Below are positions 5,088 to 64,000 of a stretch of 64,000 bases of DNA, piece by piece. The notes under the pieces are model-generated. The model was not told the DNA's origin. It was given only the letters and a program-made list of their open reading frames with translations, and searched no databases. Both the position numbers and the translations under genes were made by a program. The DNA comes from a virus, in the IMG/VR virus record IMGVR_UViG_3300013744_000001, positions 12,475 through 76,474 of that record; one strand, 5' to 3'. Each line of letters opens with the position of its first letter. Position 1 is the stretch's first letter.

Positions 5088-5417
5088 ATGGACAGACACG
5101 AATACAATGCATTCGTCGAAGGTCTGACGGCGCTTTTTCAAAAGCACGGATTGGACGCCGACTGCTCCGACTTGATTCTTCAGGCGGGCGTCGGCGTCAC
5201 CGAGTCTTACATGCATGACCTTGGCATCGCAGTCGATCTGCACAACGACAGAGTTTATGTGAGTGTTCTGGACGATGGTGTAGGCGAGGACTACGCCAGA
5301 GAGAAGGTACAGCTCTTCGCCCGCATGCTTAAGCGTCGTATCGACTGGATGCAGAACAGGATGCGGAAAAACGAAGCTACGGATTCAGGGAGCTGTGATG
5401 AAGGAAATAATTTATGA
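5088..5417 (+). CDS. hypothetical protein (109 aa)
   Basis: ORF between the SSB and the polymerase; weak RBS; overlaps the polymerase start by ~20 nt. Confidence 0.35.
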   Translation: MDRHEYNAFVEGLTALFQKHGLDADCSDLILQAGVGVTESYMHDLGIAVDLHNDRVYVSVLDDGVGEDYAREKVQLFARMLKRRIDWMQNRMRKNEATDSGSCDEGNNL

Positions 5418-34400: not shown

Positions 34401-37400
34401 GTACCGTAGGCGGCAGCAATCAGTTCCTCGGCCTCTTCCTGTGTATCCACAAGTATCAGCGTCTCCGAACCCAGAAGATTGGCCAGACGACTGTCGCTCA
34501 TCAGCCGTGTACGTAGCAACTCTCTCAGAAGCGAGATACCTTTGGTACCTGCGCGACGAACTCTAGCAGCTCTGGTGTTTCGTGAAAACAGAGGCCCTGC
34601 CAGCACACTCACACGTGCGTTCATGGCAACAAGTGCGTCGACATCTTTTACGTCTGGAAGCGGCTTGGTCACTGGAAAACTGCGATTGAACAGATCCTCG
34701 ACCTTGCGCACCAGGTTCTGCATATCTTCCAGTGTCGAATTTCTGTCGTTCATGACCTCAGCAACTTCCTGACCCAGCTCACTGTTACTATCGAGGCGAG
34801 AACCAAGGACACCAGCGTAGATGCGCACGGCGTTGCGATAGAAATTGCGCTCCATCCTGTCGGCGATCTCTTCCAGCGCAGCAGCTTTCTCCTCGGGCGT
34901 TGACAGTTGATTCGCTGCTTCGACCTTTTTAGCCACACCAGAGAGTGCACTCATAGCACCCTTGCTGAGCCTCATCTGCTCCCGAATGGCTGCTTCCAAA
35001 TTTTGAATACGCTCGGTCTGCGTTTTTACAGCAAGTTCCGGTTGACCGGAAGTCACAGCATCTTCTGTACTGACAGACGTTGTCGCCTGGTCGTTGCTAT
35101 GACCCATCGGATGCAGAAGCGACTCATTAACAGAAGAGAAGAAGCCTTTTTTCGACGGCGTCCATGTCCAGCCCTGCGGCTCACCGAGCGGACTGAGGAG
35201 ATGAACATACTCTTTGACCTTGGCCAGAATATCGGCAAAGGGCGTATCCTCGCCGAACATCACAAGACTGTTGTCATTGTTGAACTGACTGAGAATGGCG
35301 TGAACGCTGACCAACTCGCCTGTCGCAGCTTCGGAGTTACGGCCTATATCCTCAAGCTTTGTATCATTGCTGAAAAGCTTTGCCTTGCTGATATCCTTTG
35401 TCCAGTAAATACCCGTATTACCAGACTTGGCAGAAACATACTCCGTTTCCCCGTCAGTGTTTACACGAGCAACAACGCGAGCGTCGATCCAGTTGGTACC
35501 AAAGACACTGCGCAAATCATCGAGACTGGTTGCGTTGAACAAACGTTCGAGTCTTGCAGGGAACGAATCTTCTTCCGCAGACCATTCAATGACGCGGTGC
35601 AGAGGTCGCTTGTCGCCGGTTGTCTTGCCACTCGTACGCCAGACAGCGTAAATCTTTCGTTTCGCACTATCCTTCTGATTGCGAGGATAGACGAAAATGA
35701 TTTCATCAGATACACCGGATTCAACAGGGAGAGAAATAGTCTCATATCCCTGGCGGCTCTTGCCCTGTAAAACACCGACGACATACTCGATACCTTGTCT
35801 GGCGTCGATCTCGTCGGTCATCTCATCCATGAATCTGGTGAGATTACCCTTGGTCAGAAGACGACCACGCTGGTTGCGAAGAATCACCTTGCCGCTATCG
35901 GTGACATAGAGACTTAGTAATGCGCCATTGTCTGTCACAAGAGAACGATAGTTGACATCGTTTCGACCCTCGTCATCAATGATTCTACTGAGACGAAGTC
36001 TGCGAATATCGTCATCGTTAAACTGCCACCAGGCTTTAGAGCCCTTCATCTGTCGCTGTACACGAATGCCTTCGGCAGGTGGACCAATGTAGATGCTCTT
36101 CGCAACCACCGTGCCCTGTCCTTCCTGATTGTTGGCATCGGGCTTGGCGTAAGCTGTGCGGATTTCCTGTCTCGCAACACGGTCATCCAGCTTTATCTGT
36201 GCACCTGTCTCCACATCATAGCCGTCAACCGTGGCATAGAGAGCACTGCTGTTGTTACTCTCGTGAAGCCTTGCATGATAAAGAATACCGTCTTTATAGG
36301 CATAGATGTCCCGACTTCCGATACCTCTGGACTTTCTTGTTTTGGCAGAAACCTGCTCAGGCGAGATGACAAAGTAACCCTGTTCTCTGAGCGTCTGCTC
36401 GATGTTTCTGGTGTCCTGAAGTTCTTCTCGCTTTGTGACGTTGCCGTCGTCATCCGTCTCTTCGACCTCCACCAACTCAAGGAAAGAAGCTCTGGTGCCT
36501 GATGCTCCCTGTCTGGGCACATCGGTCACGACGGGAATGGATACTGCCCCCGCAGGCGCAGTGTCTGTTACAAGCTCGGGAGGCGCAGTACCCTTGTATG
36601 TGTACAGCTCACGTTCCAGATAAGACAGCAGACCCTCATCACTCTGATCCTCGATCTTGCTGGCATCGATGGTCGTGCTCTTGTGAAACACAACCGCATT
36701 GTCGTTTGCATTATGCAGAGCAACGATTCTCTCGATCAGTCTGCCCGAACGATCACCGCGCACCGTAAGCGTCTGACCGGACGAGAATTTGACAGAAGCT
36801 TCGTCATTCTCGTTACGATGCTCTATCTGCTTTGCGTCGATTGTCTTCTTGGTTTGAGGATCGTTGATTGTAGCCAGAAGGCGTAAATATGCCTCGCGAT
36901 CCGAAGAACCTTCGGCAATGTACTTGCCGATAGACACAACACTGTCCTCCTGACCGGTAGCAGCATTTGTCAAACTGTCCCACTCGTACATGCCGTCCTT
37001 GCGTTTGGCATGAGGAAGTGTTGTCACCTCTTTGTCAGACACACCTGCGATAACATCCGTACCATCATCAGTGGGACTGAGATCGTCCCGATTGACACCT
37101 TTGATGTCTGTACGCTTGGGAAAACCGGCAGCAGGTCCAACGTCCAGCGGTCCTTCGTCGTCTCCTCTGATGATGCGATCGTTGAACTCTTTTTCTTCAG
37201 CACGCGATGTCAGTTTGTCCCCTGCCTCGGAAACTGTATGAATGCCTGCACCGGACGCTGCACCGACGAGGAAGGTATCGATACTCCTGTCAACAACGTC
37301 CATCGCACCATAGGTCGCACCCTTCAGGGCAGCAGAACCCATGGCAACATGTTCCTGCGCCGTTTCGGTTACACCTTCAAAGAGAGCGGCTCTGCCGGTG

Positions 37401-38590
37401 CGTTGCAGAATATTCCGATCTGCTTCCCGCATTGCGGCAATCTCTGCCCGCCTTGCCGATATCCTGCTCAGTTCGACTCTCGTGGCATTGCGAGCTGTAA
37501 CACCTCCGCGTGTGAACAAAGCCTTGGCTTCGTTAACAACACCGCCACCAACGACGTTGAGAGTACCGACAATATCCAACGACGCCGACGCAAGACCTGC
37601 GACAAGTGTGCTGGTCGGATGCTCGGGGTCGTAAACACCCTTTGCTCTTTCTTCCCCGCGTATTGCGCCCAGTTCCTGTGCAGAGGCAAAGATGCCCAGA
37701 CCGGTAAGAATACGACGGGCAATGCCCAAGCGCCCCGTCTTGGGAAGGAATCTGGCAACGCCTACAAGACCAAGAGATGGAGCAATCGATGCCCAGTTCT
37801 CGATCAGCATCTCGTTGACCTTGCCGACCAGAGCACCGAAACCCTCTTCCAGAAGCGTTTCTCTGGCACTCTTGCCATACGTCCGCTCATAGTTGCCGTT
37901 TTTGATATCTTCTTCAGTCTTGATCACAGCCTGATTGGCCCAGTCGCTGATCTGCTTCGATCCAAGCTGATCACCCACAAGACCAATAGCATCTGCCCAA
38001 TTCTGCGTAGCCTGCTTGACAGAATGCACAGCAGCACTGTCCCGCTTGACCGTTTCACCTTCCGCATCGGGCAGTGCCAGAGTTTTGGCATTGGACTTCA
38101 GAACCTCATCGACTGTCGTATACTCGTCGATACCCGATTTCTCAAAGAACAGCTTCTTGAAGTTGGCCTTGCTGACACCTTTCAGATACGGGAACTCATA
38201 CTTGGTCGTTCTGCCGATGACCCTGTTGGCCATCTTGTCCATGTAGTAGTCAAGGTTCTCGGTCTTTACCGGGTCCGCTTCGATGAACGCTCTCAAAGTT
38301 TGAAGATTCAGAACATCGTCCGGATTCTCCGATGGCTTCTGCAAACCAAAGGTACTGTGCGCATCGGGGAAGATATCAAAGGTCGTGTTCAATGCAAAGT
38401 CTTCGCGCTCTTCCTTGCTGGCCAGCGTAGGATCGCTCTTGGCAACCTTGAGCGCAGCGCCATATGCCTGCTTGATAGCATGGTCGTAGAGATAATTCTT
38501 CTGCTCGGCACTCAAATCATCGGCGCTGCCTTCAACACCCAGCGCTGCCAAATACGACTGATAATCGAACGTGTCCCTTGAATTTGCCAT
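25442..38590 (-). CDS. giant multidomain (polyvalent-type) protein, 4382 aa, with multiple zincin-like HExxH metallopeptidase motifs; probable virion-packaged / ejected protein
   Basis: Single uninterrupted ORF; terminal gene of an ATGA/1-nt-coupled minus-strand operon. HExxH motifs at 'VLMHELGAHV', 'VLMHEIQHAVQD', 'VFMHEMTENG', 'VMHECSHYGW'. No RNAP DxDGD or helicase motifs were seen. Confidence 0.8.
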   Translation of the reverse strand: MANSRDTFDYQSYLAALGVEGSADDLSAEQKNYLYDHAIKQAYGAALKVAKSDPTLASKEEREDFALNTTFDIFPDAHSTFGLQKPSENPDDVLNLQTLRAFIEADPVKTENLDYYMDKMANRVIGRTTKYEFPYLKGVSKANFKKLFFEKSGIDEYTTVDEVLKSNAKTLALPDAEGETVKRDSAAVHSVKQATQNWADAIGLVGDQLGSKQISDWANQAVIKTEEDIKNGNYERTYGKSARETLLEEGFGALVGKVNEMLIENWASIAPSLGLVGVARFLPKTGRLGIARRILTGLGIFASAQELGAIRGEERAKGVYDPEHPTSTLVAGLASASLDIVGTLNVVGGGVVNEAKALFTRGGVTARNATRVELSRISARRAEIAAMREADRNILQRTGRAALFEGVTETAQEHVAMGSAALKGATYGAMDVVDRSIDTFLVGAASGAGIHTVSEAGDKLTSRAEEKEFNDRIIRGDDEGPLDVGPAAGFPKRTDIKGVNRDDLSPTDDGTDVIAGVSDKEVTTLPHAKRKDGMYEWDSLTNAATGQEDSVVSIGKYIAEGSSDREAYLRLLATINDPQTKKTIDAKQIEHRNENDEASVKFSSGQTLTVRGDRSGRLIERIVALHNANDNAVVFHKSTTIDASKIEDQSDEGLLSYLERELYTYKGTAPPELVTDTAPAGAVSIPVVTDVPRQGASGTRASFLELVEVEETDDDGNVTKREELQDTRNIEQTLREQGYFVISPEQVSAKTRKSRGIGSRDIYAYKDGILYHARLHESNNSSALYATVDGYDVETGAQIKLDDRVARQEIRTAYAKPDANNQEGQGTVVAKSIYIGPPAEGIRVQRQMKGSKAWWQFNDDDIRRLRLSRIIDDEGRNDVNYRSLVTDNGALLSLYVTDSGKVILRNQRGRLLTKGNLTRFMDEMTDEIDARQGIEYVVGVLQGKSRQGYETISLPVESGVSDEIIFVYPRNQKDSAKRKIYAVWRTSGKTTGDKRPLHRVIEWSAEEDSFPARLERLFNATSLDDLRSVFGTNWIDARVVARVNTDGETEYVSAKSGNTGIYWTKDISKAKLFSNDTKLEDIGRNSEAATGELVSVHAILSQFNNDNSLVMFGEDTPFADILAKVKEYVHLLSPLGEPQGWTWTPSKKGFFSSVNESLLHPMGHSNDQATTSVSTEDAVTSGQPELAVKTQTERIQNLEAAIREQMRLSKGAMSALSGVAKKVEAANQLSTPEEKAAALEEIADRMERNFYRNAVRIYAGVLGSRLDSNSELGQEVAEVMNDRNSTLEDMQNLVRKVEDLFNRSFPVTKPLPDVKDVDALVAMNARVSVLAGPLFSRNTRAARVRRAGTKGISLLRELLRTRLMSDSRLANLLGSETLILVDTQEEAEELIAAAYGTAPFYSREGLIQGFVIPETGQVVLVGDGIRVGDAGAVLMHELGAHVRRFGFSDEEFTGILDELKNRQNDDSEEGRQIREAIRRVQEGNRLNSNDRHFWEEVGAYLVEANAGNPTSIVSRIVSWIKTYLYKLSVIDTDSLTNQDIVNFARGAVRTARRGDFDRNVSQTISRNAQIYGLARNLGVPIDELRKELDKIHERTASEESDVQFSFAGERGAAALDNAEAATTRLDNLVVAREMEAANKSVSLIKLATGWERGKDGKWRYELDDSGITVRTNEAIHALAQVVPVALRKIIDAPELFAAYPELQQMRFAYRADDDSRVAGTYFGPKRGIHLRDDLLKKPEKAKQVLMHEIQHAVQDIEGFANGGSVEEAPVNVNREKARENAPGPWLKLMTDKSLLTGYLKTHGISVKANGDLSRKVRIDKYKASSINRLVKLINRLFAVKTPYYNEKRYERDIYRKLYNVGWDHFYDYVRRNVPAFRGMDKTKFDAQWGVVRSWKEEYEQELAAIKWYKSIAGETEARNVETRLDMTATERRESAAYQTEDIAREDQHILEKELRGFVQLFSAHQELRSRSDLMVDFVQTPSFKAWYGDWQTDSSLSPPAVQQAEDGNLVVKNSKGEFKVFDEATPKFSMAISNKPVQYEEMDSGIVHLGPNAKHIVPKESAIPKKLRDKGVVFYSPETISNFNTRFDRLRRYGFIYASLNDRVSSIDALQNIIMRRQQAMLPGTTSADFALGRFINDTFVIDYLSVDREHMSEYVFMHEMTENGVPFVTALAYDEEIDLNEMNNPGLFGFNVSYIGQQYSSGLSRQHKHVYILAENNTPQADIDLYIQQLKARADFVEREITEDDIGEQVSPVPWYSSLAELVGEQSRNLPAAKWLSRLVQWGNESKNRGESSPFNQEVYWTGVREWLEIKDPNDIVEPAELYDFLVGNNVEFKNVMLGGPRSKLGRYARQSVPLDNTDWDLRIRKHESSDYVFAAVSSDLFADQPIAYALLSRLSVHSAGTGIRRVILAINNDDITTLLNNNDVQTRLENILDATFKPVANQQAVGNARKQWAKQFKNYKDAITYFNDWFNQNIYNNPELAYLTSDTSSYLPTHYSGSVMEGRKTDYAELLFYQNKKTPTLEYLHEFVIDPRHWRKEVVNGGLRYTLSEDAMLGRDMHIDYVEKDNKYALTIEVFSDDDFYDISNVSDGTTVTYTTDTLEEALKRASDFVVEQDMNEQLVADEFNQGHFPREGKDLVAHTRFDTRETTDGKRILFVEEVQSDWANDLLFGKLRPEAPYVKYQKAWVTMVAKQVIAHAVEQGDIDGISWTSAEDQSNRWHTMGKRRLEVYQKTLPKAMQNILSDHSPDAKLENVDIQDIGVRQALMLTDEIRNSIQSKGFPLFSIQDTGRSSDETVEGQQIQGAPGVYNRKGGGFAMRYDETVPGHERESLVYGAVLMTDNARDTDLLRALQTSLEADKDLLDSTVGMLVRESQNGESFDRKGIFASMMREVIFEGEENPHFNEVRDALYDAAGLALHVAPSSLSLTDAELLSAANAIGALENNVSEIDVAHPVPPPASELTRNEILDEAIQAGIEENDSVVPEYNADGTASVRTESGNTEYVFEDVNGKDENFRAALDSLSELTTNYDDGTLFSTNEDGTVRKIPGLTTPEELEAFLQRILPPELYEQIEIHWEETRTAKAILRNAFGLFFPYRATDKSIHIRAWDRSIPQVLATVMHECSHYGWTMWGSKALDAEIVRIYNAYTETIYAELPQYFEMLGISDPYLVPDKWKVYLVNEFFAHVNASLMDDSPQIANAFHISDEEYRAMRERLWGVMAEIERKIGNSLLVNIGDRTAIDKFAKDLIALTMGTVVGRGARLIQNTLQSPTGARAPLSKIQIITNDYGQTRRTVPQTREALQVAETREVIRKWGRFFSKGDVIAEFILNNFPMHNRLKGWGFFPSLNVEHAVLGESVGTAYASRLIGNFWNKVSETVASKQRKRFLDLLDLKSALLDAHFDPNLIGGRGNETFAQVFTRLGFAPDSAMMQKARLADATALELSSMKYRNALDIRRAIRGQALELEKRMRIAKIDERTIGRMRKSMAQFESRFHADWDHRMYNVFNGETGVRDLQRLLSYLETDTGAGEMTVNERARDAERIIEAATQQEQAGLITYKQFLSSTRDARTVLKDKERLDALKHYFELRTSNAVKIRAGSDWRTMLLRNMRAEIKQLIMEASRSNNNNGYGEDHLNRISAVRGRTLEDTEEDNFYRTFLDPNTNFFESLLYSVDQQEKILQKLTFNQEMAEHILDTGMGVLRQSIEHDRSYSDSLSWAEDGSILKYVAVDPIFQHALDNEYEVNRNVREAAWSGAIDSMKANSTIYSLRLAVSNHIGSLGILMSSGHLFRIGMMKKAGHVSWKQFADKMLLNSKNLSEAENKFLQMMYKYHIWGATTSDTMMQIRNKGWHEKAIHAIFSYLRDLNVVSNMSQNGLENIVKNALDKMRQFYAFGDEWLKPWVFMNNYNNMLAKHKALTPGLREEQYERLAGKDAAEMTLQETTSWEYTPKLIRHMSMNSIRMITPDFLMHNFQMARITAAIYTRFFDVMEELGKVSARDDVNEPAMKEYKDALTKEAVQRGIGVGLTTATYYGLFGAAKGVIAYLPYALGTMLGAIKLDDDDDERKKRRARSFFYPSEYHGATRITNWLNGGNNLFLPVMRDHDDPYSFFGYNYARNNVMLTHAPIMAATEDPTFEQRIIEAMKNFMDLSQGTMTQELVNNLMGKDKFGREISPAEAATAIGKRMMVPGVMTQILQATVGLPSTDTDFRKGRAIKVPQLAGITVNKYDVRDVTNHLGYFIREQGSLSKNVKKRAFVDDLSKGQPLPARDIAERIAKLREKNREDLNKAVYLLKGIRDFGLSEKEIHKYLTTSRKNAATLVSKDNAMAFLKGQNIFDIMLLNSLEEKKRNLLKSVPTSRMDKDSIDIAIANTDRAIKLMRQSLRISVE

Positions 38591-50881: not shown

Positions 50882-51625
50882 TTACTTCAATACATCAAGA
50901 ACAGTTTCCTTCCACTTCAACTGCTGAATCATGACACCGGAGCTGTGACGTTTGCCTGTATCCAAAAGCACCGCATGAACCTTGCCCTTCTCTGTCGGCA
51001 ACCATTGCCCGCCGGACTTGACCTGATAACCTCCGATCTCAAGCAGCTTGTTTACCTCCCTCGGTCCGGAGAGATGCAGCATCTCAGCAATCTGAGTGGG
51101 TGAAAAGAAATATTTCTGGTCGGGGTTCTTCAACTCGATCTGCAAGGTCTGAAGCAACGAGATACCATGCTCCCTGCGAATGGCATTGTCGGCAGAGACG
51201 ATGGCCGCATTCCCTTCCAACCCGCAGAGCTCGGCCACAGCCTTCAACGCCGCAAACTCGCGGGCCGCCACCTCTTTGTTCAAAAGCTCAGACCGTGGCA
51301 GGACATACGCACCGGTTTTACGAATAGTTGGGAGTACTTCCGATGTTACCCACTTGCGAAATGCCTGAGCCTCGGGCTTCCGGGATTTGAAAACAAGTGC
51401 ATAAAGCCCAGACTCAGAAATGACGGACATTCGCTGACTTCCGCCAAGGGTACGTATACTGTACGTACCCTTTTCATCGTCACCTAACGACTGAACTGTC
51501 TGACTCACATCTGTCAGCTCCAGAATATCGCAGATATCCTTGGCCACAAACCAAGGCTCTCCGTCTCTGACCACTGTGCGCACCTCATGTTGGTCCTGAA
51601 AATTGAATACTGTTACTGCGTCCAT
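50882..51625 (-). CDS. Bro-N domain antirepressor-family protein (247 aa)
   Basis: 'MDAVTVFNFQDQHEVRTVVRDGEPWFVAKDICDILELTDVSQ...'; same RBS. Confidence 0.75.
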   Translation of the reverse strand: MDAVTVFNFQDQHEVRTVVRDGEPWFVAKDICDILELTDVSQTVQSLGDDEKGTYSIRTLGGSQRMSVISESGLYALVFKSRKPEAQAFRKWVTSEVLPTIRKTGAYVLPRSELLNKEVAAREFAALKAVAELCGLEGNAAIVSADNAIRREHGISLLQTLQIELKNPDQKYFFSPTQIAEMLHLSGPREVNKLLEIGGYQVKSGGQWLPTEKGKVHAVLLDTGKRHSSGVMIQQLKWKETVLDVLK

Positions 51626-51671
51626 GATTCCTCCTTGTAACGTGATAAAAGATCGAACTGCCCATCCTGTC

Positions 51672-51699
51672 ATTATACCATGGTCTATCTTTTAGGCAA
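51672..51699 (-). promoter_or_regulatory. sigma-70-like promoter for the Bro gene (-35 TTGCCT, 16-nt spacer, -10 TATAAT)
   Basis: Read on the minus strand: 'TTGCCTaaaagatagaccatggTATAAT'. Confidence 0.5.
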
Positions 51700-58942: not shown

Positions 58943-59040
58943 CTCCACCTCCCGAATATTCGCCCTCTGTCTTGTGTGAATGTCTCTTGAGTCTTTCATA
59001 TTTTTTATATATCTGAGTTTATATGGTTATGCTTATACCC

Positions 59041-59069
59041 AGTGTAACATAACTTATCCACGTGTCAAG
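59041..59069 (-). promoter_or_regulatory. sigma-70-like promoter for the minus-strand structural operon (-35 TTGACA, 17-nt spacer, -10 TACACT)
   Basis: Plus 'agtgta' at 59041-46 and 'tgtcaa' at 59064-69, read as a reverse complement. Confidence 0.5.
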
Positions 59070-59364
59070 GAAAAACGCACAGTTTTGTAACTGATGTCAT
59101 ACCTTGGCACGTGGCGACTATGCGCCAATTACGCTGACATTTGTCTACAATGTGAAGATATAATATCAGAGGCACTTTGTTTTTGCCATTTTTTAACATT
59201 TACAATGCGTGGGGTTCAATATCAAGACCAAGCCCCCGGCTGCAAAACCACAAAGCCCCCAATGGCCCATGTCGCCCGCCAGAGGGCCAGAGGGCCACAA
59301 CAAAAATCAATACAAAGCCGCGAAATACCATGTAACTATGCGATATCATTATTGAAAAAAATTG

Positions 59365-59393
59365 TTGACAAAAAATTGTGAACGCCGTATAGT
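59365..59393 (+). promoter_or_regulatory. near-consensus sigma-70 promoter (-35 TTGACA, 17-nt spacer, -10 TATAGT) driving the GC-rich moron
   Basis: 'attgTTGACAaaaaattgtgaacgccgTATAGTgtgg' read directly. Confidence 0.6.
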
Positions 59394-59435
59394 GTGGCCA
59401 TCACTAGGCATAGTGCCTGGTGACACGGCCTGGTG

Positions 59436-59452
59436 CTTGTGACGGTCACAAG
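59436..59452. promoter_or_regulatory. palindromic motif copy 1 'CTTGTGACGGTCACAAG' in the 5' leader of the 59504 gene
   Basis: 8-bp inverted repeat with a 1-nt centre; the same motif occurs 7 times in 59.4-63.4 kb. Confidence 0.7.
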
Positions 59453-59503
59453 CGCGCATGGCCACATAATACACAGGGAGCGAGGCTCCCAAGGAGCACT
59501 ACC

Positions 59504-60274
59504 ATGGCACGTAACAACAAGACCACCTCCGCCACCTCCACCACCACCACCGTCAAAATGTTACTGTTGGCGGTGGTAGACGCTTGCCGTGAGTCCACGG
59601 CGGCGTCACAACTGGCCGGCCAAGCCCTAGCCGGCGCCACCAGGGCCACTCAGGAGGCGCTTGATGCGATCCTGAGTGGCGTAGTGCCGGATCCGCGCAA
59701 GCCGGATCCGGCTAAAGTGCAGGCCTGTTGGCAGGCCTTGGACAAGGCCTTGCAGGCCGCAGGCTTGCCGAACTCCACAACTTGCCGGCGCGCGGAAATT
59801 GCAGAGTCCGCGCCGGACGAAGCGCGCGCTGCAGCGCGCATAGCTGCGGCTCTGTCGCAGCGCCTATCGCGCGCAACCAAGGCCGCCGTCAAGGCGGCTT
59901 GCGAGGACGGCCGCAAAACCGTCCGCTCTGGCAATATGTCGCCAGAGCGCGCAGAGACCGTCTTGACCAAGCGCCTCGCCGGTGTCCAATTGACGGACGC
60001 CGACAAAAAGGCTCTGCACGACGCATGCAGAGCAGGCGCAGGACTCACGGTGTCACCTGTAGCAATCCAGCCACAAGTAACGCCTGCAATTGCCAGCAAT
60101 CTGCTGGCGTCATGCCAGCGGATTGCAGACACTCTGCCACCACGTGAGGCGCTGGCAGAGGTAATGCGCATGTTGGAGAATGCGCTTGGAGAGACTACCA
60201 ATCTGCCGGTGACGCCCACGCCGGCAGAGACCAAGGCAAGAGCGCGAACTAGGCGCAAGCTCAAAGCCGCGTAA
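59504..60274 (+). CDS. Ala-rich hypothetical protein encoded by a GC-rich moron (256 aa; basic C-terminus 'KARARTRRKLKAA')
   Basis: AAGGAG RBS 8 nt upstream of the ATG at 59504. Local GC is visibly much higher than the window average. Own promoter upstream and intrinsic terminator downstream. Confidence 0.5.
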   Translation: MARNNKTTSATSTTTTVKMLLLAVVDACRESTAASQLAGQALAGATRATQEALDAILSGVVPDPRKPDPAKVQACWQALDKALQAAGLPNSTTCRRAEIAESAPDEARAAARIAAALSQRLSRATKAAVKAACEDGRKTVRSGNMSPERAETVLTKRLAGVQLTDADKKALHDACRAGAGLTVSPVAIQPQVTPAIASNLLASCQRIADTLPPREALAEVMRMLENALGETTNLPVTPTPAETKARARTRRKLKAA

Positions 60275-60293
60275 AGCGCGGCGTTGAGACCAA

Positions 60294-60326
60294 GCCCCCT
60301 AGCAGCAATGCCAGGGGGCTTTTTTG
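60294..60326 (+). terminator. rho-independent terminator
   Basis: Stem 'GCCCCCT'...'AGGGGGC' followed by TTTTTTG. Confidence 0.75.
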
Positions 60327-60331
60327 TATCC

Positions 60332-60424
60332 TGATGCCATGATGCCATGATGCCATGATGCCATGATGCCATGATGCCATGATGCCATGATGCCATGATG
60401 CCATGATGCCATGATGCCATGATG
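60332..60424. repeat. tandem array of ~11.5 copies of the 8-bp unit 'GATGCCAT' (CATG every 8 bp)
   Basis: Read directly: '(gatgccat)n'. Confidence 0.9.
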
Positions 60425-60440
60425 CTTGTGACCGTCACAA
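60425..60440. promoter_or_regulatory. palindromic motif copy 2 'CTTGTGACCGTCACAA' between the two 8-bp arrays, followed by 'TATAATAATA'
   Basis: Read directly. Confidence 0.65.
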
Positions 60441-60450
60441 TATAATAATA

Positions 60451-60547
60451 GTGGCATAGTGGCATGGTGGCATGGTGGCATGGTGGCATGGTGGCATAGT
60501 GGCATAGTGGCATGGTGGCATGGTGGCATGGTGGCATGGTGGCATGG
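60451..60547. repeat. second tandem array of ~12 copies of the related 8-bp unit 'GTGGCATG' (variant GTGGCATA)
   Basis: Read directly; the unit differs from array 1 at 2 of 8 positions. Confidence 0.9.
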
Positions 60548-60563
60548 CTTGTGACCGTCACAA
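60548..60563. promoter_or_regulatory. palindromic motif copy 3 'CTTGTGACCGTCACAA' closing the second array
   Basis: Read directly. Confidence 0.65.
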
Positions 60564-61107
60564 CTGCGCGCTTAGTAGGAAGTGGGTGATGGCGACATGC
60601 TCTGAAGTGAGTGCTTTGAGGCCTTGACACTGGACACTTTGACGCTCGAACTCTTAAATTTAAGGCCTTTTGATAAATTATACATACACCAAAAGGGTTT
60701 TCGTGTATGTATATATGAATGACGAAAAGTTTTTAATTTTTGCCGTAAATGTTGGAATAAACATTTCATCATTTTTCCCCAACTCTTAAATAATTAAGTG
60801 TTAACACAAAATTGTATATGGTACTCTGCACCATATAAACTTTAATCATAAGTAAAATTGATACTTCTGACTCTTTCCAGAGCCAACTCTTTAAAACTTT
60901 TGATGAAATGTTTATTCTAAAATTCCATAGAAAAAATAAAAACTTTATATCAAAATCAAACTAAAATCATAGTTCAATTCCGCTAAACATCAAAAAAACT
61001 GGAGTTCCCCCTACGTCTACCATTCAAAAAACTGATGGATTACCTTGAGGTTCAAAAATTTGTATCAAAAAAATTGATGGATTTTAAGTTAATTTTAAGG
61101 CCCGATC

Positions 61108-61144
61108 TGTTAAATTTAAAACCGACCATTTAAATTTAACAGAG
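61108..61144. other. 14-bp perfect inverted repeat 'CTGTTAAATTTAAA'...'TTTAAATTTAACAG' (7-nt spacer) in the AT-rich non-coding region
   Basis: Read directly; 'TTAAATTTAA' also recurs at ~60655 and (degenerate) ~60787. Confidence 0.6.
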
Positions 61145-61164
61145 CAACCACTTGAAAATAAATG

Positions 61165-61193
61165 TTGACAAATTATTGTAAATAGGATATAAT
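61165..61193 (+). promoter_or_regulatory. perfect consensus sigma-70 promoter (-35 TTGACA, 17-nt spacer, -10 TATAAT)
   Basis: 'aaatgTTGACAaattattgtaaataggaTATAATatagg' read directly; drives the plus-strand gene set starting at 61342. Confidence 0.65.
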
Positions 61194-61277
61194 ATAGGCA
61201 CAAAATAAAAAAAGGACCAGGGCAAAACCGACCTGGTCCGAACATCAAAAGCTCTGGTACAACCACACGGAACAGAG

Positions 61278-61294
61278 CTTGTGACGGTCACAAG
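61278..61294. promoter_or_regulatory. palindromic motif copy 4 'CTTGTGACGGTCACAAG', ~50 nt upstream of the 61342 start, preceded by hairpin 'GGACCAGG..CCTGGTCC'
   Basis: Read directly. Confidence 0.7.
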
Positions 61295-61341
61295 CGAAAA
61301 AGCCAGGGCGACAAAGGGACAAAGTCCCAGGGAGAAAAACC

Positions 61342-62121
61342 ATGTCAACGTCCACCCTCACTTCCTCCAACGCTATTTCTGCCACTCACCCGTTCCTGTC
61401 CGCTTCTGTCTTGCTCGATAGGACAGAGCAGACAATCAATCGTACTCTGTCTCAGATCGTAGCCGTAGACGATCTGGAATCGGAGTCGTCCTTGGCAGGC
61501 TCTGTTTTCTGGCGGATCAAGGATCTGCTCGATGAAGGCAGAGACACCATGACAGAGCAGGAGCGGCTCTGTCATATACAGTCTACGCTCCAAGCTTGGG
61601 CCACTAGTGCCATGCCTGACAGCATTGCTCATCAAGTTTGCCAAGCCTGCCTCAATAGCCTTGTGACTGTCACAAGGCGCAAGGCCTTAGTCATTCTCAA
61701 TCATCCGCTTTCACAGGAGCAGGTCGAGGATCTGGACAAGGCTTGGGGCGTCAGCTTTGACGCCATCATCACTCTTCCTTCAGAGCTCAAAAGTTTGTGG
61801 GCGAACATTCCGCCCGAAGCTGACGACATACAGGTATGCATGCATGTCCAGCCCGTCATCAATTGGGCCAGGAGCAGGGACATTGGCCTGCTGTCTGGCG
61901 ACATGATTATTATAGGCGGTGAGCTGGTAGCTACGCTTGCCGTCATAGCAGGCATGGACAAGGACATCCTGCCCGTGTGCGCAACCACTAGGCGCGAATC
62001 TGTCGAGAAGACCATGCCGGATGGTAGCGTTCAGAAAACGAACGTGTTCCGTCACGTTCGATTCAGACAGATACCAATACCAATACCAATACCAATACCA
62101 ATACCAGTATCGACAAGGTAA
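61342..62121 (+). CDS. hypothetical protein (259 aa) with C-terminal (IP)6 repeat
   Basis: 'CAGGGAGAAAAACC-ATG' RBS. Possible Rossmann-like core 'ALVILNHPLSQEQ...MIIIGGELVATLAVIAG', not assignable. Contains palindromic motif copy 5 at ~61659-61677. Confidence 0.55.
   Translation: MSTSTLTSSNAISATHPFLSASVLLDRTEQTINRTLSQIVAVDDLESESSLAGSVFWRIKDLLDEGRDTMTEQERLCHIQSTLQAWATSAMPDSIAHQVCQACLNSLVTVTRRKALVILNHPLSQEQVEDLDKAWGVSFDAIITLPSELKSLWANIPPEADDIQVCMHVQPVINWARSRDIGLLSGDMIIIGGELVATLAVIAGMDKDILPVCATTRRESVEKTMPDGSVQKTNVFRHVRFRQIPIPIPIPIPIPVSTR
62071..62106 (+). repeat. hexanucleotide tandem repeat (ATACCA)6 encoding (IP)6
   Basis: Read directly. Confidence 0.9.
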
Positions 62122-62130
62122 CATAACCAG

Positions 62131-62171
62131 CTTCACGGTGGCACATTGTCTATCGATGTGCCACCGTGAAG
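62131..62171 (+). other. 16-bp perfect inverted repeat hairpin 'CTTCACGGTGGCACAT'..'ATGTGCCACCGTGAAG' (9-nt loop) just after the 61342 gene stop
   Basis: Read directly; no U-tract, so it is a terminator-like or processing hairpin. Confidence 0.55.
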
Positions 62172-62212
62172 CGAACCATACACCACATACCAAAGACAAA
62201 GGACACAACGTC

Positions 62213-62629
62213 ATGGATACGAAAGGCAAGAACGCAAAAACTCGCTGGCAGGAATTCTGCACCACGGCCCATCACTGGCTGTGGGTACAGATCCTGGCCT
62301 GGCGTTACGCCCGTACGCTCTTTCCTGCCCATGACGTCATCAAGGGTATCAACATCCTTGTCTTTGGCGATAAGCAGGCTACGACATGGCATCGTAAGTA
62401 CTCAAGGCACCATACCGTAGTCATCAATCCTTCCTTCAAGGCTATCATATCAGGCGCAGGCCCAATCGATATTCGAAACAAGATCGAAGCCGCTATCGAT
62501 TGGGAATCTGCCAGATATACCAAGCCGGATAAGCCACTGACGGCTTACGAAACATGGCTTAGGTACTATCGTCATATCGACATGGTAGATACGCTCAAGA
62601 CCTTGGGCTTGTGGGGCAAGGTACATTAA
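62213..62629 (+). CDS. hypothetical protein (138 aa from ATG 62213)
   Basis: AAAGGA RBS; the track ORF 62021..62629 5' extension overlaps the upstream gene and hairpin. Confidence 0.45.
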   Translation: MDTKGKNAKTRWQEFCTTAHHWLWVQILAWRYARTLFPAHDVIKGINILVFGDKQATTWHRKYSRHHTVVINPSFKAIISGAGPIDIRNKIEAAIDWESARYTKPDKPLTAYETWLRYYRHIDMVDTLKTLGLWGKVH

Positions 62630-62632
62630 TAT

Positions 62633-62651
62633 CCTTATGACAGTCACAAGG
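62633..62651. promoter_or_regulatory. palindromic motif copy 6 'CCTTATGACAGTCACAAGG', ~30 nt upstream of the 62684 start
   Basis: Read directly. Confidence 0.65.
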
Positions 62652-62683
62652 ATGCAAACACAACCAGAATAAAGGAGAATACC

Positions 62684-63325
62684 ATGAACGAGACTCTGAT
62701 TGATCTGACTAATATTGCGGCTTACTATGCAGAGCCCAAAGACTTTTTCATATCCAGAGGTATGAGCCCCGATCCTTTCGACGCATACGATGGGATCGCA
62801 TGGGACAAGGTAAACAACACGATTGTCCGCACGTGCATGGGTGAGCCTAGGAAAAACTGCAAGCTCTACAGTCTTACCGACAAGGACATTGCTGCGCTTA
62901 ACGGCATGCTTGAGGACAGACTGATGGCGGAGACTGAGCAGCAAGAGTACGAGGACTATCTGCAAAAGGTAGCCAAGCCGCGGTTCGATCGAGCCCTTTC
63001 CTTCCTCCAAAGCCTGGCACCATACGTCAGGCACGAACGCTATGACGGCTATGTCAAAGGCAATGCAGAGTGGCAGTTTGTCATGCGCAATAACCGCAGA
63101 ATTGTCGTCATGCCTACAGATAGCCATGCTAAAGGCTTCATGGCTTATCCCATGGAAGAACCGATCTTGACTGTAGAATCGTTTGTCGATCAGGAGCTGT
63201 CCGACGACGAAATTCTGTCGGAAGCGATTAGTGCCATTGACAGACTTTGGCACGAACATGTTCAGGAGAAGACCAGGCGTTCCGATCCTGTTCTCGGAAC
63301 ATCCTTTTGGACAAAGCATATATAA
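62684..63325 (+). CDS. hypothetical protein (213 aa)
   Basis: AAAGGAGAATACC-ATG RBS. Confidence 0.55.
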   Translation: MNETLIDLTNIAAYYAEPKDFFISRGMSPDPFDAYDGIAWDKVNNTIVRTCMGEPRKNCKLYSLTDKDIAALNGMLEDRLMAETEQQEYEDYLQKVAKPRFDRALSFLQSLAPYVRHERYDGYVKGNAEWQFVMRNNRRIVVMPTDSHAKGFMAYPMEEPILTVESFVDQELSDDEILSEAISAIDRLWHEHVQEKTRRSDPVLGTSFWTKHI

Positions 63326-63348
63326 GTAACATAACCAGCTTCACGGTG

Positions 63349-63367
63349 CCTTGTGACGGTCACAAGG
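63349..63367. promoter_or_regulatory. palindromic motif copy 7 'CCTTGTGACGGTCACAAGG', ~35 nt upstream of the 63401 start
   Basis: Read directly; immediately preceded by the 23-bp direct repeat 'GTAACATAACCAGCTTCACGGTG' (also at 62118-62140). Confidence 0.7.
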
Positions 63368-63400
63368 ACACAAGTATAACTAAAACAAAGGGAGAACACC

Positions 63401-63832
63401 ATGATCGATAGCAAATTCGATTGGGAAAAGGCAAGGAAACAGATCGTCAACTTAGAGGATACGCTGAAGTATTCTTTGCATTCTTCATTAGGCAAGTATG
63501 CTATCTTTAAATTTTCAGCTTACGATTGTATGTGGGAAGGCGAAAGCTACTATGTGAACGATGTATATTCAACATCGTATAGCATTGTCCTTCCTGTCGA
63601 GGCTCTGTTCTTTCCGGATAACAAGTTTCAAGCAGTAGTACGAAAGGCAATGAGTACACAGATTCAACGCACTGGCCATGTGCTTGCTGATAAGCAAGAG
63701 GTAAGGCGAGTTTATGTCGACGAACAGTATTCGATGGTTGATTCCATCGAGCTATACGTCTTCAAAGATCGTCAAGTCTGTCCTTACGGACGCTTTGATC
63801 TGATTGTCGAAGACAGTGATAATGTGGAGTAA
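63401..63832 (+). CDS. hypothetical protein (143 aa)
   Basis: AAAGGGAGAACACC-ATG RBS. Confidence 0.5.
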   Translation: MIDSKFDWEKARKQIVNLEDTLKYSLHSSLGKYAIFKFSAYDCMWEGESYYVNDVYSTSYSIVLPVEALFFPDNKFQAVVRKAMSTQIQRTGHVLADKQEVRRVYVDEQYSMVDSIELYVFKDRQVCPYGRFDLIVEDSDNVE

Positions 63833-63862
63833 TCAGATCAAAGAAATACAAGGAGCAAAGTC

Positions 63863-64000
63863 ATGGAACGAGCTGGAAAGATGCCTGTCATTTACGATTC
63901 TGGTTGGGTCAGAGAACCGGACGATGACAACGAGTATGACAACGAGTATGACAACGAGTATGACAACGAGTATGACAACGAGTATGACAACGAGTATGAC
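63863..64000 (+). CDS. partial CDS (3' end outside window) containing a (DNEY)n repeat
   Basis: AAGGAG RBS; 'MERAGKMPVIYDSGWVREPDDDNEYDNEYDNEY...' encoded by a 12-bp tandem repeat 'GACAACGAGTAT' x >=6 from ~63923 to the window end. Confidence 0.45.
   Translation, partial: MERAGKMPVIYDSGWVREPDDDNEYDNEYDNEYDNEYDNEYDNEYD

What the first reader, a model, noticed from the sequence alone, without database searches (positions are those of the whole stretch)
59436..63367. Seven copies of a 17-19 bp palindrome CCTTGTGAC-N-GTCACAAGG marking the leaders of a block of small plus-strand genes
Copies lie at ~59436, 60425, 60548, 61278, 61659 (inside the 61342 gene), 62633 and 63349. Four sit 30-60 nt upstream of start codons (59504, 61342, 62684, 63401), downstream of the sigma-70-like promoters and therefore within the 5' leaders; two bracket the 8-bp repeat arrays. 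The motif is either a DNA operator for a dimeric regulator (the TGTGAC...GTCACA half-sites resemble CRP/FNR-type sites but with a 1-nt spacer) or an RNA hairpin shared by these transcripts (processing, antitermination or translation-control site). It defines a coregulated gene set that does not match a regulon I recognise.
Basis: seen in the sequence. Interest (0 to 1): 0.7.

Follow-up and report, generated by a model that had tools for sequence, protein, structure and literature searches.

The report
Conserved hairpin punctuating phage early genes
An uncultivated phage marks the leaders and gene boundaries of its first ~7 kb of early (partly anti-defence) genes with an almost invariant 17-19 nt palindrome. 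It most likely acts as a stem-loop in the early messenger RNAs, much like the RNase III processing hairpins of phage T7, and it also serves as a joint where early gene cassettes are swapped.

Summary
Seven copies of (G/C)CTTGTGAC-N-GTCACAAG(C/G) lie at 59435-63367 and nowhere else in the 64 kb (0.02 expected). Relatives carry up to 10 copies, all within the first ~7.1 kb after the probable genome end and none in the next 22 kb.

The window is a novel phage. Its only two consensus sigma-70 promoters (59365, 61165) sit just upstream of palindrome-bearing leaders.

Evidence that the element works as a transcribed stem-loop:
- Non-conserved flanks extend the stem or form a lower stem.
- The outer pairs covary.
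- A distant relative has a homologous family, TTTGGA-NNN-TCCAAA, with compensatory swaps.
- Synonymous sites are frozen in the coding copies.
- The hairpin centre lies 41-44 nt before start codons in 24 of 40 intergenic instances.

This layout mirrors T7 early RNase III sites, whose hairpin centres lie 42-48 nt before ATG. Homology breakpoints between relatives fall at the palindrome edges, as with T4-type PeSL cassettes.

The invariant cap suggests a sequence-specific partner that I could not identify. An Aca-like DNA/RNA-binding regulator is the main rival. A CRP-like operator and an N4-type hairpin promoter are poorly supported.

Verdict: a new variant of a known kind, of moderate interest.

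The parts
59365..59393 (+). Promoter P1, sigma-70 type (TTGACA-17-TATAGT) with A-rich upstream tract
   Evidence: It is one of only two sites matching at least 11/12 in the whole window on either strand. It is conserved in relatives L225, L221 and L233.
59401..59423 (+). 5'-terminal stem-loop of the P1 transcript (UCACUAGGCA-UAG-UGCCUGGUGA)
   Evidence: Fold. The sequence GGCATAGTGCC resembles the unit of the 8-bp arrays.
59427..59463 (+). Extended helix of the P1 leader: palindrome copy 1 (59435-59453) capped on about 16 pairs with two bulges
   Evidence: leader z = -4.55. The centre is 60 nt before ATG 59504.
59504..60274 (+). Early gene 1 (256 aa, Ala-rich, basic C-terminus), monocistronic. 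Dispensable, because it is truncated in relative L219.
60294..60326 (+). Intrinsic terminator after gene 1 (GCCCCCT...AGGGGGC followed by TTTTTT)
   Evidence: Read from the sequence. It is conserved in L007 and L221.
60331..60546 (.). Two 8-bp tandem arrays, (ATGATGCC)n and (ATRGTGGC)n. They are partly complementary and form a long imperfect hairpin with copy 2 at the apex.
   Evidence: miRNA-precursor-like hits; 30 enclosing pairs, z = -6.6. The arrays are hypervariable among relatives.
60424..60442 (.). Palindrome copy 2 (core only, 7-bp arms)
60547..60565 (.). Palindrome copy 3 (core only, 7-bp arms)
61165..61193 (+). Promoter P2, perfect sigma-70 consensus (TTGACA-17-TATAAT)
61251..61309 (+). 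Bipartite helix of the P2 leader: lower stem 61251-61258 paired with 61302-61309, an internal loop, and an upper stem that is palindrome copy 4 (61277-61295)
   Evidence: leader z = -6.06. The lower stem is 98% paired in 7 relatives, with C-G, U-G and U-A at one pair. The centre is 56 nt before ATG 61342.
61342..62121 (+). Early gene 2 (259 aa). Residues 116-243 form a Csx20-like domain.
   Evidence: NF040559, E = 1.2e-24, 87 bits, cut-off 70. Precomputed PF27247.
61658..61678 (+). Palindrome copy 5 (21 nt, GCCTTGTGACTGTCACAAGGC) inside gene 2, at codons 107-112, just before the Csx20 domain. It encodes LVTVTR.
   Evidence: Synonymous sites are frozen. The copy is degenerate in L221 and extends to a perfect 35-nt palindrome in L230.
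62118..62172 (+). 23-nt repeat GTAACATAACCAGCTTCACGGTG followed by a 17-bp-stem hairpin that shares the lower stem of copy 7 but has a different cap. It is the only intercistronic hairpin without the motif.
   Evidence: D13, I12. Sequence.
62633..62651 (+). Palindrome copy 6 (one A.C mismatch), 13 nt after a stop codon. The centre is 42 nt before ATG 62684.
63326..63367 (+). Second copy of the 23-nt repeat plus palindrome copy 7 (63349-63367). The centre is 43 nt before ATG 63401.

Best explanation
The palindrome is the conserved cap of a stem-loop that forms in the early messenger RNAs. Host RNA polymerase starts at the strong sigma-70 promoters P1 and P2 (P3 lies just beyond the window) and transcribes through the palindromes. 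In the RNA each palindrome folds as a 7-bp stem (UUGUGA.../...UCACAA) with a 3-nt loop (C/U-N-G). Locus-specific pairs lengthen this stem, or a lower stem encloses it. The hairpins punctuate the early transcripts. I infer that the RNA is cut or trimmed at or next to them, by host RNase III or by a sequence-specific factor. This would leave each upstream cistron with a protective 3' hairpin and each downstream cistron with a short, unstructured, A/C-rich leader of about 30 nt before its Shine-Dalgarno sequence, as at the early RNase III sites of phage T7. As a by-product, the repeated element is a substrate for recombination that gains, loses and swaps early gene cassettes. Shown here: the restricted distribution, transcription context, pairing potential, covariation, fixed spacing and recombination joints. 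Inferred: the cleavage or stabilisation itself and the identity of the enzyme.
For: (1) Context. The only two consensus sigma-70 sites in 64 kb lie 50-90 nt upstream of palindrome copies. A third promoter-leader-palindrome unit follows in relatives. No phage RNA polymerase was detected.
(2) Single-strand structure. In all three leaders the palindrome caps a longer helix: about 16 pairs in P1, and lower stems of 8 and 7 bp around internal loops in P2 and P3. Leader z-scores are -4.6, -6.1 and -5.0. Intercistronic copies extend to 10-13 bp through unrelated flanks.
(3) Pairing is kept through change. Relative L221 has TGTGTGAC-N-GTCACACA in three copies and CTTGTGAC-N-GTCACAAG in the others. Distant relative L239 has 14 copies of TTTGGA-N2-3-TCCAAA in the same genomic place, which is the same element with GT/TG and AC/CA swapped in step. 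One pair of the P2 lower stem shows C-G, U-G and U-A. Among 65 unique instances, non-Watson-Crick cells in the first 10 pairs are G.U-type 21 times and A.C-type 5 times.
(4) Fixed spacing. The centre-to-ATG distance is 41-44 nt in 24 of 40 intergenic instances, across non-homologous spacers and genes, and 50-60 nt in most of the rest, including the P1 and P2 leaders, which carry an extra small hairpin. T7 R0.3, R0.5, R1 and R1.3 hairpin centres are 42-48 nt from their ATGs and show the same upper stem, internal loop and lower stem design (site identities are from my knowledge of Dunn and Studier 1983).
(5) Selection. Synonymous positions inside the two coding copies are invariant (4/4 and 3/4), against 26% and 17% in flanking codons.
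(6) Recombination joints. Homology between relatives repeatedly ends 9-10 nt from a palindrome centre, and hybrid left and right flanks occur.
Against: The 13-nt cap is almost invariant among about 10 paralogues in each of 11 genomes. RNase III needs no such sequence, and T7 sites vary most at the apex. This points to a sequence-specific partner that I did not find. Several copies are too short for a classical RNase III substrate: 6-7 bp in the array copies and in the copies at a gene's 3' end. Copies 2 and 3 lie after a strong terminator, in a non-coding array region where an RNA role is unclear. Covariation within orthologous leader alignments is not statistically significant (243/500 and 97/500 shuffles reach it), because the relatives are too close. 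The instances behind the G.U versus A.C count are not independent. Copy 6 carries an A.C mismatch on the plus strand. Processing at the leader copy would remove the 5'-terminal hairpin of the P1 transcript. In L239 the spacing to start codons is not fixed, and one copy overlaps a Shine-Dalgarno sequence and ATG, which looks more like translational control.
Confidence: 0.4

Rival explanations
1. The palindrome is the binding site of a sequence-specific, probably phage-encoded, dimeric regulator of the Aca type (HTH or RHH). The regulator would recognise the palindrome as duplex DNA and/or as the stem of the RNA hairpin in the 5' UTRs. It would damp expression of the early anti-defence genes by roadblock and/or translational repression.
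For: The two-fold symmetric 13-nt core is nearly invariant, the central base varies, and the sequence is lineage-specific, which is the signature of co-evolution with a specific binder. The first P2 gene has a Csx20-like ring-nuclease domain, so the early region is at least partly an anti-defence island. Aca1 and Aca2 bind inverted repeats in promoters and RNA hairpins in acr 5' UTRs, their motifs extend to neighbouring counter-defence operons, and an RHH Aca regulates csx20 homologues (PMC13551039). In L239 one copy overlaps a Shine-Dalgarno sequence and start codon. Fixed spacing to the start codon fits control of translation.
Against: No HTH or RHH protein was found among the early ORFs. 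The only HTH-like candidate (341-721) scores below threshold and is not conserved in L239. No copy overlaps a promoter. The hairpin ends about 20 nt before the Shine-Dalgarno sequence, so it does not occlude it. The P3 leader copy heads a >30 kb operon containing replication and packaging genes, which an early-gene repressor would also shut down. A duplex-DNA site does not need the lower stems or stem extensions.
Confidence: 0.25
2. The palindrome is a selfish or neutral palindromic repeat, or a PeSL-like recombination module. It spreads and is homogenised by recombination or gene conversion, its main effect is shuffling of early gene cassettes, and it has no dedicated regulatory role.
For: Breakpoints of homology fall at the palindrome edges, and hybrid flanks and cassette deletions occur. 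The 23-nt repeat at 62118 and 63326 bounds a deletion in L219 and L229. Individual copies are dispensable: they are absent from the L233 P2 leader and the L238 P3 leader and degenerate in L221. The phage encodes an exonuclease and an Enc34-like ssDNA-binding protein. The precedent is PeSLs (PMC2839356, PMC4122927).
Against: Fixed 41-44 nt spacing to start codons, locus-specific stem extensions, frozen synonymous sites in coding copies and persistence of a homologous family in a relative with about 28% protein identity all indicate purifying selection on a function, not mere spread.
Confidence: 0.1
3. The palindrome is a processive antitermination element of the nut/boxB or put type. The leader hairpins would load a factor onto host RNA polymerase, or modify it directly, so that it reads through terminators in the long early and middle operons.
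For: All three promoters are followed within about 45-85 nt by two adjacent stem-loops, the second capped by the conserved motif. P3 heads a very long operon. Gene 1 ends with an arginine-rich C-terminus (KARARTRRKLKAA).
Against: Most copies are intercistronic or internal, not promoter-proximal. The fixed spacing to ATG is unexplained. No boxA-like companion is conserved. Gene 1 is missing in L219, which keeps its palindromes. No strong terminators are seen inside the P2 operon.
Confidence: 0.07
4. The palindrome is an N4-type single-stranded DNA hairpin promoter. It would be read by a virion-delivered RNA polymerase hidden in the 4382-aa virion protein (25442-38590, minus strand), with each palindrome starting a short-leader early transcript.
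For: The geometry is the same as N4 early promoters: a 7-bp stem and a 3-nt loop, with sequence-specific stem bases and lineage-specific sequence (PMC4496689). The copies cluster at the probable leading end of the genome. A start about 11 nt after the loop centre would give uniform leaders of about 30 nt. The giant protein is of unknown function.
Against: No RNA polymerase signature was found in the giant protein by Pfam, PHROGs, NCBIfam or PDB sequence search. Perfect host promoters lie upstream. The loop centre on the template strand is mostly C, not the purine N4 requires. Lower stems and the bias towards G.U argue that the palindrome itself is transcribed. One L239 copy overlaps the start codon it would have to serve.
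Confidence: 0.06

Closest known systems
Early RNase III processing sites of coliphage T7 (R0.3, R0.5, R1, R1.1, R1.3)
   Same: Both are families of related hairpins in the leader and intercistronic regions of an early operon driven by strong host promoters. Both show an upper stem of 8-13 bp, an internal loop and a lower stem. Hairpin centres are 42-48 nt before start codons in T7 and 41-44 nt (50-60 nt in the P1 and P2 leaders) here. In both, the first site lies between the promoters and the first gene.
   Different: Here the apical 13 nt are almost invariant and the base of the stem varies, whereas in T7 the apex varies and the region near the internal loop is conserved. Many copies here are shorter than a classical RNase III substrate. 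Copies also occur in a non-coding array region and inside genes. Cleavage is untested.
PeSL (promoter-early stem-loop) cassettes of T4-type phages (PMC2839356, PMC4122927)
   Same: Both are short conserved regulatory repeats containing a stem-loop that flank variable early ORFs. Both coincide with indel and swap boundaries between close relatives.
   Different: PeSLs are composite terminator-promoter units at every copy. Here only 3 of about 10 copies are associated with a promoter, and the stem-loop is not terminator-like because it has no U tract.
Aca1/Aca2 binding motifs: inverted repeats in acr promoters and RNA hairpins in acr 5' UTRs (PMC13551039)
   Same: Both are palindromes or hairpins in the 5' UTR of phage anti-defence genes expressed from strong early promoters. 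In the Aca system a csx20 homologue is among the regulated genes. In both, the motif extends to neighbouring operons.
   Different: No Aca-like HTH or RHH gene was found in the operon. No copy lies in a promoter. About 10 copies are spread over 7 kb, including coding and array positions.
Bacteriophage N4 virion-RNA-polymerase hairpin promoters (PMC4496689)
   Same: Both have a 5-7 bp stem and a 3-nt loop with conserved stem bases. Both occur in several copies at the genome end that enters first. In both, the phage carries a giant virion protein.
   Different: Host promoters lie upstream here. The loop-centre base is wrong on the template strand. No polymerase homology was detected. The extended stems and lower stems are not part of N4 promoters.
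Mycobacteriophage stoperators and start-associated sequences (from my own knowledge: Brown et al. 1997; Pope et al. 2011)
   Same: Both are many copies of one short motif in short intergenic gaps just upstream of genes, confined to part of a phage genome.
   Different: Stoperators are asymmetric 13-bp duplex sites for a prophage repressor. SAS lie 3-8 bp from start codons. Here the motif is a symmetric hairpin about 33 nt from the ATG in an apparently lytic phage.

Membership tests
T7-type RNase III processing site | Lies in the transcribed leader or intercistronic RNA of a host-polymerase early operon | tested here: met
   Copies lie downstream of P1 and P2 and between cistrons, 10-40 nt after stop codons.
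T7-type RNase III processing site | Irregular helix of about two turns: upper stem, internal loop, lower stem | tested here: inconclusive
   Leader copies have 15-16 pairs with an internal loop or bulges. Intercistronic copies have 8-13 bp. Array and gene-end copies have 6-7 bp.
T7-type RNase III processing site | Hairpin a fixed short distance (about 40-50 nt) upstream of the start codon | tested here: met
   41-44 nt in 24 of 40 instances, compared with 42-48 nt in T7.
T7-type RNase III processing site | Cleaved by RNase III in vivo and in vitro | not testable with these tools
   Needs end mapping in rnc+ and rnc- hosts, or an enzyme assay.
CRP/FNR-type operator | TGTGA-N6-TCACA (CRP) or TTGAT-N4-ATCAA (FNR) half-site spacing | tested here: not met
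   The spacing is 3 nt (TGTGA-CNG-TCACA) in all copies.
CRP/FNR-type operator | Part of a host regulon, with several sites in a host genome | tested here: not met
   The scan gave 83 single matches in 185,579 species genomes (80 listed). Most listed matches are in Atopobium/Lancefieldella genomes. The one inspected lies in a coding ORF that I read as rbfA, encoding LVTVT. No listed contig has more than one site.
Aca-type regulatory motif | Inverted repeat in the promoter or 5' UTR of an anti-defence operon | tested here: met
   Copy 4 lies in the 5' UTR of the Csx20-like gene.
Aca-type regulatory motif | Co-encoded HTH or RHH regulator in the same operon | tested here: not met
   There are no HTH or RHH hits in the early ORFs with Pfam, PHROGs or NCBIfam. 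Remote folds are not excluded.
Aca-type regulatory motif | Protein binding to the motif | not testable with these tools
   Needs EMSA or a reporter assay.
N4-type hairpin promoter | 5-7 bp stem with a 3-nt loop | tested here: met
   The stem is TTGTGA(C)/(G)TCACAA with a C-N-G loop.
N4-type hairpin promoter | Purine at the loop centre on the template strand | tested here: not met
   The plus-strand centre is G in most transcribed copies, which makes the template base C. The requirement is from PMC4496689.
N4-type hairpin promoter | Virion-packaged RNA polymerase encoded by the phage | tested here: inconclusive
   The 4382-aa protein gave no polymerase hit. Very remote homology cannot be excluded.
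PeSL-type mobile regulatory cassette | Marks indel and swap boundaries between related genomes | tested here: met
   HSP ends lie 9-10 nt from palindrome centres in L219, L221, L228, L230 and L232 compared with L225.
PeSL-type mobile regulatory cassette | Each unit combines an early promoter with a terminator-like stem-loop | tested here: not met
   Only the P1, P2 and P3 units have promoters, and no U tract follows the stems.

The most novel reading that the evidence does not exclude
The palindrome is the recognition hairpin of a dedicated phage-encoded machine rather than a substrate of a generic host enzyme. The most radical version is an N4-independent case of single-stranded hairpin promoters read by a virion-delivered RNA polymerase hidden in the 4382-aa protein. 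A milder version is a hairpin-specific endoribonuclease or RNA/DNA-binding regulator that co-evolves with its site across this phage lineage: TGTGAC/GTCACA in one clade and TTGGAC/GTCCAA in another.
Probability: 0.07. Interest if true: 0.85.

Novelty: new variant of a known kind. Interest (0 to 1): 0.5.

Why it matters
If the reading is right, this uncultivated and very divergent phage lineage has a T7-like solution for expressing its first genes: host promoters plus a family of hairpins that cut and stabilise the early RNA. It differs from T7 in having an unusually invariant, lineage-specific cap, which implies a specific partner still to be found. The hairpins delimit exchangeable cassettes in an island that includes a Csx20-like ring-nuclease domain, so the motif is a practical flag for locating new anti-defence genes in metagenomic relatives. 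The two co-varying motif families give a clean handle for finding the partner by co-evolution or pull-down.

Tried and rejected
- DNA similarity of 59000-64000 to 50,697 phage records: no match. TerL and DNA polymerase have only remote relatives, so no annotated model phage exists.
- Rfam on the region: only spurious miRNA-precursor hits on the arrays.
- Motif scans of viral, metagenome and genome collections: outside close relatives there are only single chance hits. The many Atopobium/Lancefieldella hits appear to be one orthologous site, and the one I inspected lies in an ORF I read as rbfA. A host regulon is rejected.
- Search for a phage RNA polymerase: the giant protein hits only LPD23 and phrog_13543, and the 842-aa ORF is a primase.
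- Intrinsic terminator: rejected, because no U tract follows the stem on either strand.
- A flank-shuffle test of 'enclosing pairs' was uninformative, because random flanks also pair in MFE folds.
- Orthologous-alignment covariation was too weak to be significant.
- The idea that array copies are inverted (centre C) did not hold up in relatives, where the centre is T, A or C.
- A more distant phage with a homologue of the 653-aa protein (L324) has no hairpin family.

Full report
**Observation.** With up to three mismatches the 19-mer matches 7 times in 64 kb against 0.02 expected. The 15-nt core TTGTGAC-N-GTCACAA finds the same seven sites and nothing else. In an unbiased scan for perfect hairpins with a 6-bp stem and 3-nt loop, TTGTGA-NNN-TCACAA is the only family with more than two members: six copies, against a largest family of one in 50 shuffles. 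The motif is confined to 59.4-63.4 kb.

**Genomic setting.** The window is a phage with no close cultured relative.
- Identified genes: DNA polymerase A (5395-7446), helicase, exonuclease, an Enc34-like ssDNA-binding protein, TerL (12102-13784) and portal.
- There is a 4382-aa virion-type protein on the minus strand (25442-38590). Its only hits are LPD23 and a PHROG of unknown function.
- No RNA polymerase was detected.
- Plus-strand genes run from 59.4 kb over the window end. Minus-strand late genes run leftwards from 59.0 kb.
- Only two sites in the whole window, on either strand, match the sigma-70 consensus at 11-12 of 12 positions: P1 (59365) and P2 (61165). Both lie directly upstream of palindrome-bearing leaders, and they share an extended consensus.

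**Relatives.** Motif scans and a protein search with the 61342-62121 product recovered about ten distinct related genomes at 75-90% DNA identity.
- In the best-covered relative (L225/L007) there are ten copies in the first 7.1 kb and none in the following 22 kb.
- A third promoter (P3), again followed by a palindrome, heads the long replication operon.
- Several independent contigs start just left of P1 at a short tandem array, so this is probably the genome end or a systematic assembly break.

**Where the copies sit.** Across 11 genomes there are 65 unique instances. They fall into six classes:
- Leaders of P1, P2 and P3.
- Intercistronic gaps 10-40 nt after a stop codon.
- One in-frame copy inside the first P2 gene.
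- One at the 3' end of a 266-aa gene.
- One to three copies flanking hypervariable tandem arrays downstream of the gene-1 terminator.

The distance from palindrome centre to the next start codon is 41-44 nt in 24 of 40 intergenic instances, although the intervening A/C-rich spacers and the genes are not homologous. It is 50-60 nt in most of the rest, including the P1 and P2 leaders, which contain an additional small GC hairpin abutting the Shine-Dalgarno sequence.

**Evidence for a single-stranded (RNA) structure.**
- *Folding.* Each leader has the palindrome as the cap of a longer helix. P1 has about 16 pairs with two bulges. P2 has an 8-bp lower stem (61251-61258 with 61302-61309), an internal loop and an 8-bp cap. 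P3 has a 7-bp lower stem, a 6x6 loop and the cap. Leader z-scores are -4.6, -6.1 and -5.0.
- *Stem extension.* Intercistronic copies are lengthened to 10-13 bp by flanks unrelated between loci.
- *Variation in lower stems.* They are 98% paired in 7-9 relatives. Most changes are to G.U. One pair shows C-G, U-G and U-A. These relatives are too similar for the shuffle control to be significant, and I do not claim significance.
- *Paralogous comparison.* L221 carries TGTGTGAC-N-GTCACACA in its P1 leader, array and P2 leader copies, but CTTGTGAC-N-GTCACAAG elsewhere, so two outer pairs change in step.
- *Distant comparison.* L239 (a 76-kb genome, about 28% identity in a shared 653-aa protein, same architecture) has 14 copies of TTTGGA-N2-3-TCCAAA within 2.7 kb of the equivalent region and only one weak match in the other 19 kb. 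The cag/ctg-loop copies read TTGGAC-N-GTCCAA, which is the window's TGTGAC-N-GTCACA with two pairs exchanged compensatorily. The loop triplet is free: cag, ctg, gtg, gac, cac.
- *Strand bias.* Non-Watson-Crick cells in the first ten pairs are G.U-type 21 times and A.C-type 5 times. The instances are not independent.
- *Coding copies.* Non-central synonymous positions are invariant (4/4 and 3/4), against 26% and 17% in flanking codons.
- *The cap as a module.* The hairpin at 62130-62172 uses the same lower-stem sequence as copy 7 with another cap. L238 keeps the P3 lower stem without the cap. L233 lacks the P2 leader copy. Single copies are therefore dispensable.

**Comparison with T7.** I folded the T7 early region at the positions I recall for R0.3, R0.5, R1, R1.1 and R1.3. 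The RefSeq record does not annotate these sites, so their identity rests on my knowledge of Dunn and Studier 1983. The folds show 9-13 bp upper stems, an internal loop, a lower stem and related sequences. Hairpin centres are about 48, 43, 46 and 42 nt before the starts of genes 0.3, 0.5, 1 and 1.3. The layout here is the same: strong host promoters, a first hairpin in the leader, further hairpins before each cistron, and nearly the same spacing. That is the basis for my preferred mechanism. The hairpins would be processing and stability punctuation of the early RNA, leaving about 30-nt unstructured leaders. Cleavage itself is inferred, not shown.

**What does not fit a generic RNase III site.** The apical 13 nt are almost invariant among paralogues and orthologues, while each lineage has its own version. 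In T7 the apex is the most variable part. Several copies have only 6-7 bp. This is the signature of a sequence-specific partner. The best-documented analogue is the Aca family: HTH or RHH regulators that bind inverted repeats in acr promoters and, for Aca1 and Aca2, RNA hairpins in the 5' UTR, with reach into neighbouring counter-defence operons and with csx20 homologues among the regulated genes (PMC13551039). This matters here because residues 116-243 of the first P2 gene product match NCBIfam Csx20 (E = 1.2e-24, above cut-off). However, I found no HTH or RHH gene in the early operons. The 341-721 product has only sub-threshold HTH hits and is not conserved in L239. No copy overlaps a promoter. 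A copy also heads the essential P3 operon. I therefore rank this second.

**Other rivals.**
- *CRP/FNR-like operator.* Excluded by spacing and by the absence of any multi-copy bacterial genome. Most of the 80 listed single hits (83 found) are in Atopobium/Lancefieldella genomes. The one I inspected lies in an ORF I read as rbfA, encoding LVTVT.
- *Intrinsic terminator.* Excluded, because no U tract follows the stem.
- *N4-type hairpin promoter.* It shares the stem and loop geometry, the clustering at the leading end and the giant virion protein (PMC4496689). Against it: the host promoters upstream, the wrong loop-centre base on the template strand, no polymerase signal, the transcribed lower stems, and an L239 copy that overlaps the start codon it would serve.
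- *put/nut-like antitermination.* It would explain the promoter-proximal copies but not the intercistronic ones or the spacing to ATG.

**Recombination.** Alignments of early regions end repeatedly 9-10 nt from a palindrome centre.
- L228 joins the left flank of the 62633-type copy to the right flank of the 63349-type copy and lacks the gene between them.
- L219 fuses two downstream copies in the same way.
- L219 and L229 lack the DNA between the two 23-nt repeats GTAACATAACCAGCTTCACGGTG.

This parallels PeSL-mediated modular shuffling in T4-type phages (PMC2839356, PMC4122927). I regard it as an observed consequence rather than the selected function, because spacing, stem extension and synonymous-site conservation indicate selection on each copy.

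**Verdict.** I put about 0.65 on 'a transcribed cis-acting stem-loop of the early RNAs' and about 0.4 on the specific processing and stability mechanism. It is a new variant of a known kind, in a lineage with no cultured representative. The unidentified specific partner is the open and interesting point.

Noticed in passing
window 61342-62121 (+): The first gene after promoter P2 encodes a 259-aa protein. Its C-terminal half (residues 116-243) matches NCBIfam NF040559 'CRISPR-associated protein Csx20' (E = 1.2e-24, 87 bits, cut-off 70; precomputed PF27247). This makes it a candidate phage ring nuclease or anti-type-III-CRISPR factor. The in-frame palindrome sits just before the domain (codons 107-112), as if a cassette had fused to an upstream ORF.
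   Followed up: partly
window 60331-60546; L007 1150-1610; L221 1247-1300; L239 5000-5660: Tandem arrays of 5-19 bp units lie downstream of the gene-1 terminator. They are hypervariable in sequence between relatives. In the window clade the left and right arrays stay complementary to each other, giving a hairpin or cruciform of about 100 nt with a palindrome at the apex. The unit GGCATRGTG recurs in the 5' hairpins of the P1 and P3 leaders. This could be an origin, a packaging site or a genome-end structure.
   Followed up: partly
window ~59240-59300; starts of L222, L223, L225, L226, L227, L233: Six contigs from separate samples begin just left of P1, at or near a (CAGAGGGC)n array. In the window and in L219 the sequence runs on into the late genes. 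This suggests a physical genome end with terminal redundancy, or a systematic assembly break.
   Followed up: no
window 62118-62140 and 63326-63348: An exact 23-nt direct repeat, GTAACATAACCAGCTTCACGGTG, starts at or just after two stop codons. The DNA between the two copies (two genes) is missing in relatives L219 and L229.
   Followed up: partly
window 59476-59490 and 61315-61327; L007 264-276, 2396-2408: A small GC hairpin (GGGAGC-GAG-GCUCCC, or GGGGC-GAA-GCCCC in relatives) directly abuts the Shine-Dalgarno sequence in the P1 and P2 leaders only. It accounts for their longer spacing of 55-60 nt.
   Followed up: no
window 25442-38590 (-): A single 4382-aa ORF. Its only recognisable piece is an LPD23 'polyvalent protein' domain at residues 1619-1669 (phrog_13543). 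It has no PDB sequence match. It is probably an ejected virion protein, and its function is unknown.
   Followed up: partly
L239 5296-8003 (ERZ28594390 scaffold_287, 76.4 kb): This distant relative has its own family of 14 hairpins, TTTGGA-N2-3-TCCAAA. Tandem copies lie in inverted orientation on both sides of a (CTTGC)n array, and one copy overlaps a Shine-Dalgarno sequence and ATG. A ~600-nt non-coding stretch (5900-6500) between the arrays and the first gene looks structured.
   Followed up: partly
window 62071-62112 and 63924-64000: There are in-frame coding tandem repeats: (ATACCA)n at the 3' end of the Csx20-like gene and (ATGACAACGAGT)n in the ORF starting at 63865. Relatives lack or vary them.
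   Followed up: no
window 17476-18222 (+) and 50882-51673 (-): Two Bro-N/Ant-type 'anti-repressor' paralogues lie on opposite strands (phrog_130, E about 1e-57). A DNA methyltransferase is at 18228-19082.
   Followed up: no
[not shown]
   Followed up: partly
L296 5090-5106 (Lancefieldella parvula CP097092.1) and many other Atopobium/Lancefieldella genomes: In this genome the exact 17-nt palindrome lies in a coding ORF that I read as rbfA, encoding LVTVT. The many other Atopobium/Lancefieldella hits are presumably the same site. This is a coding coincidence, not a regulatory site.
   Followed up: yes
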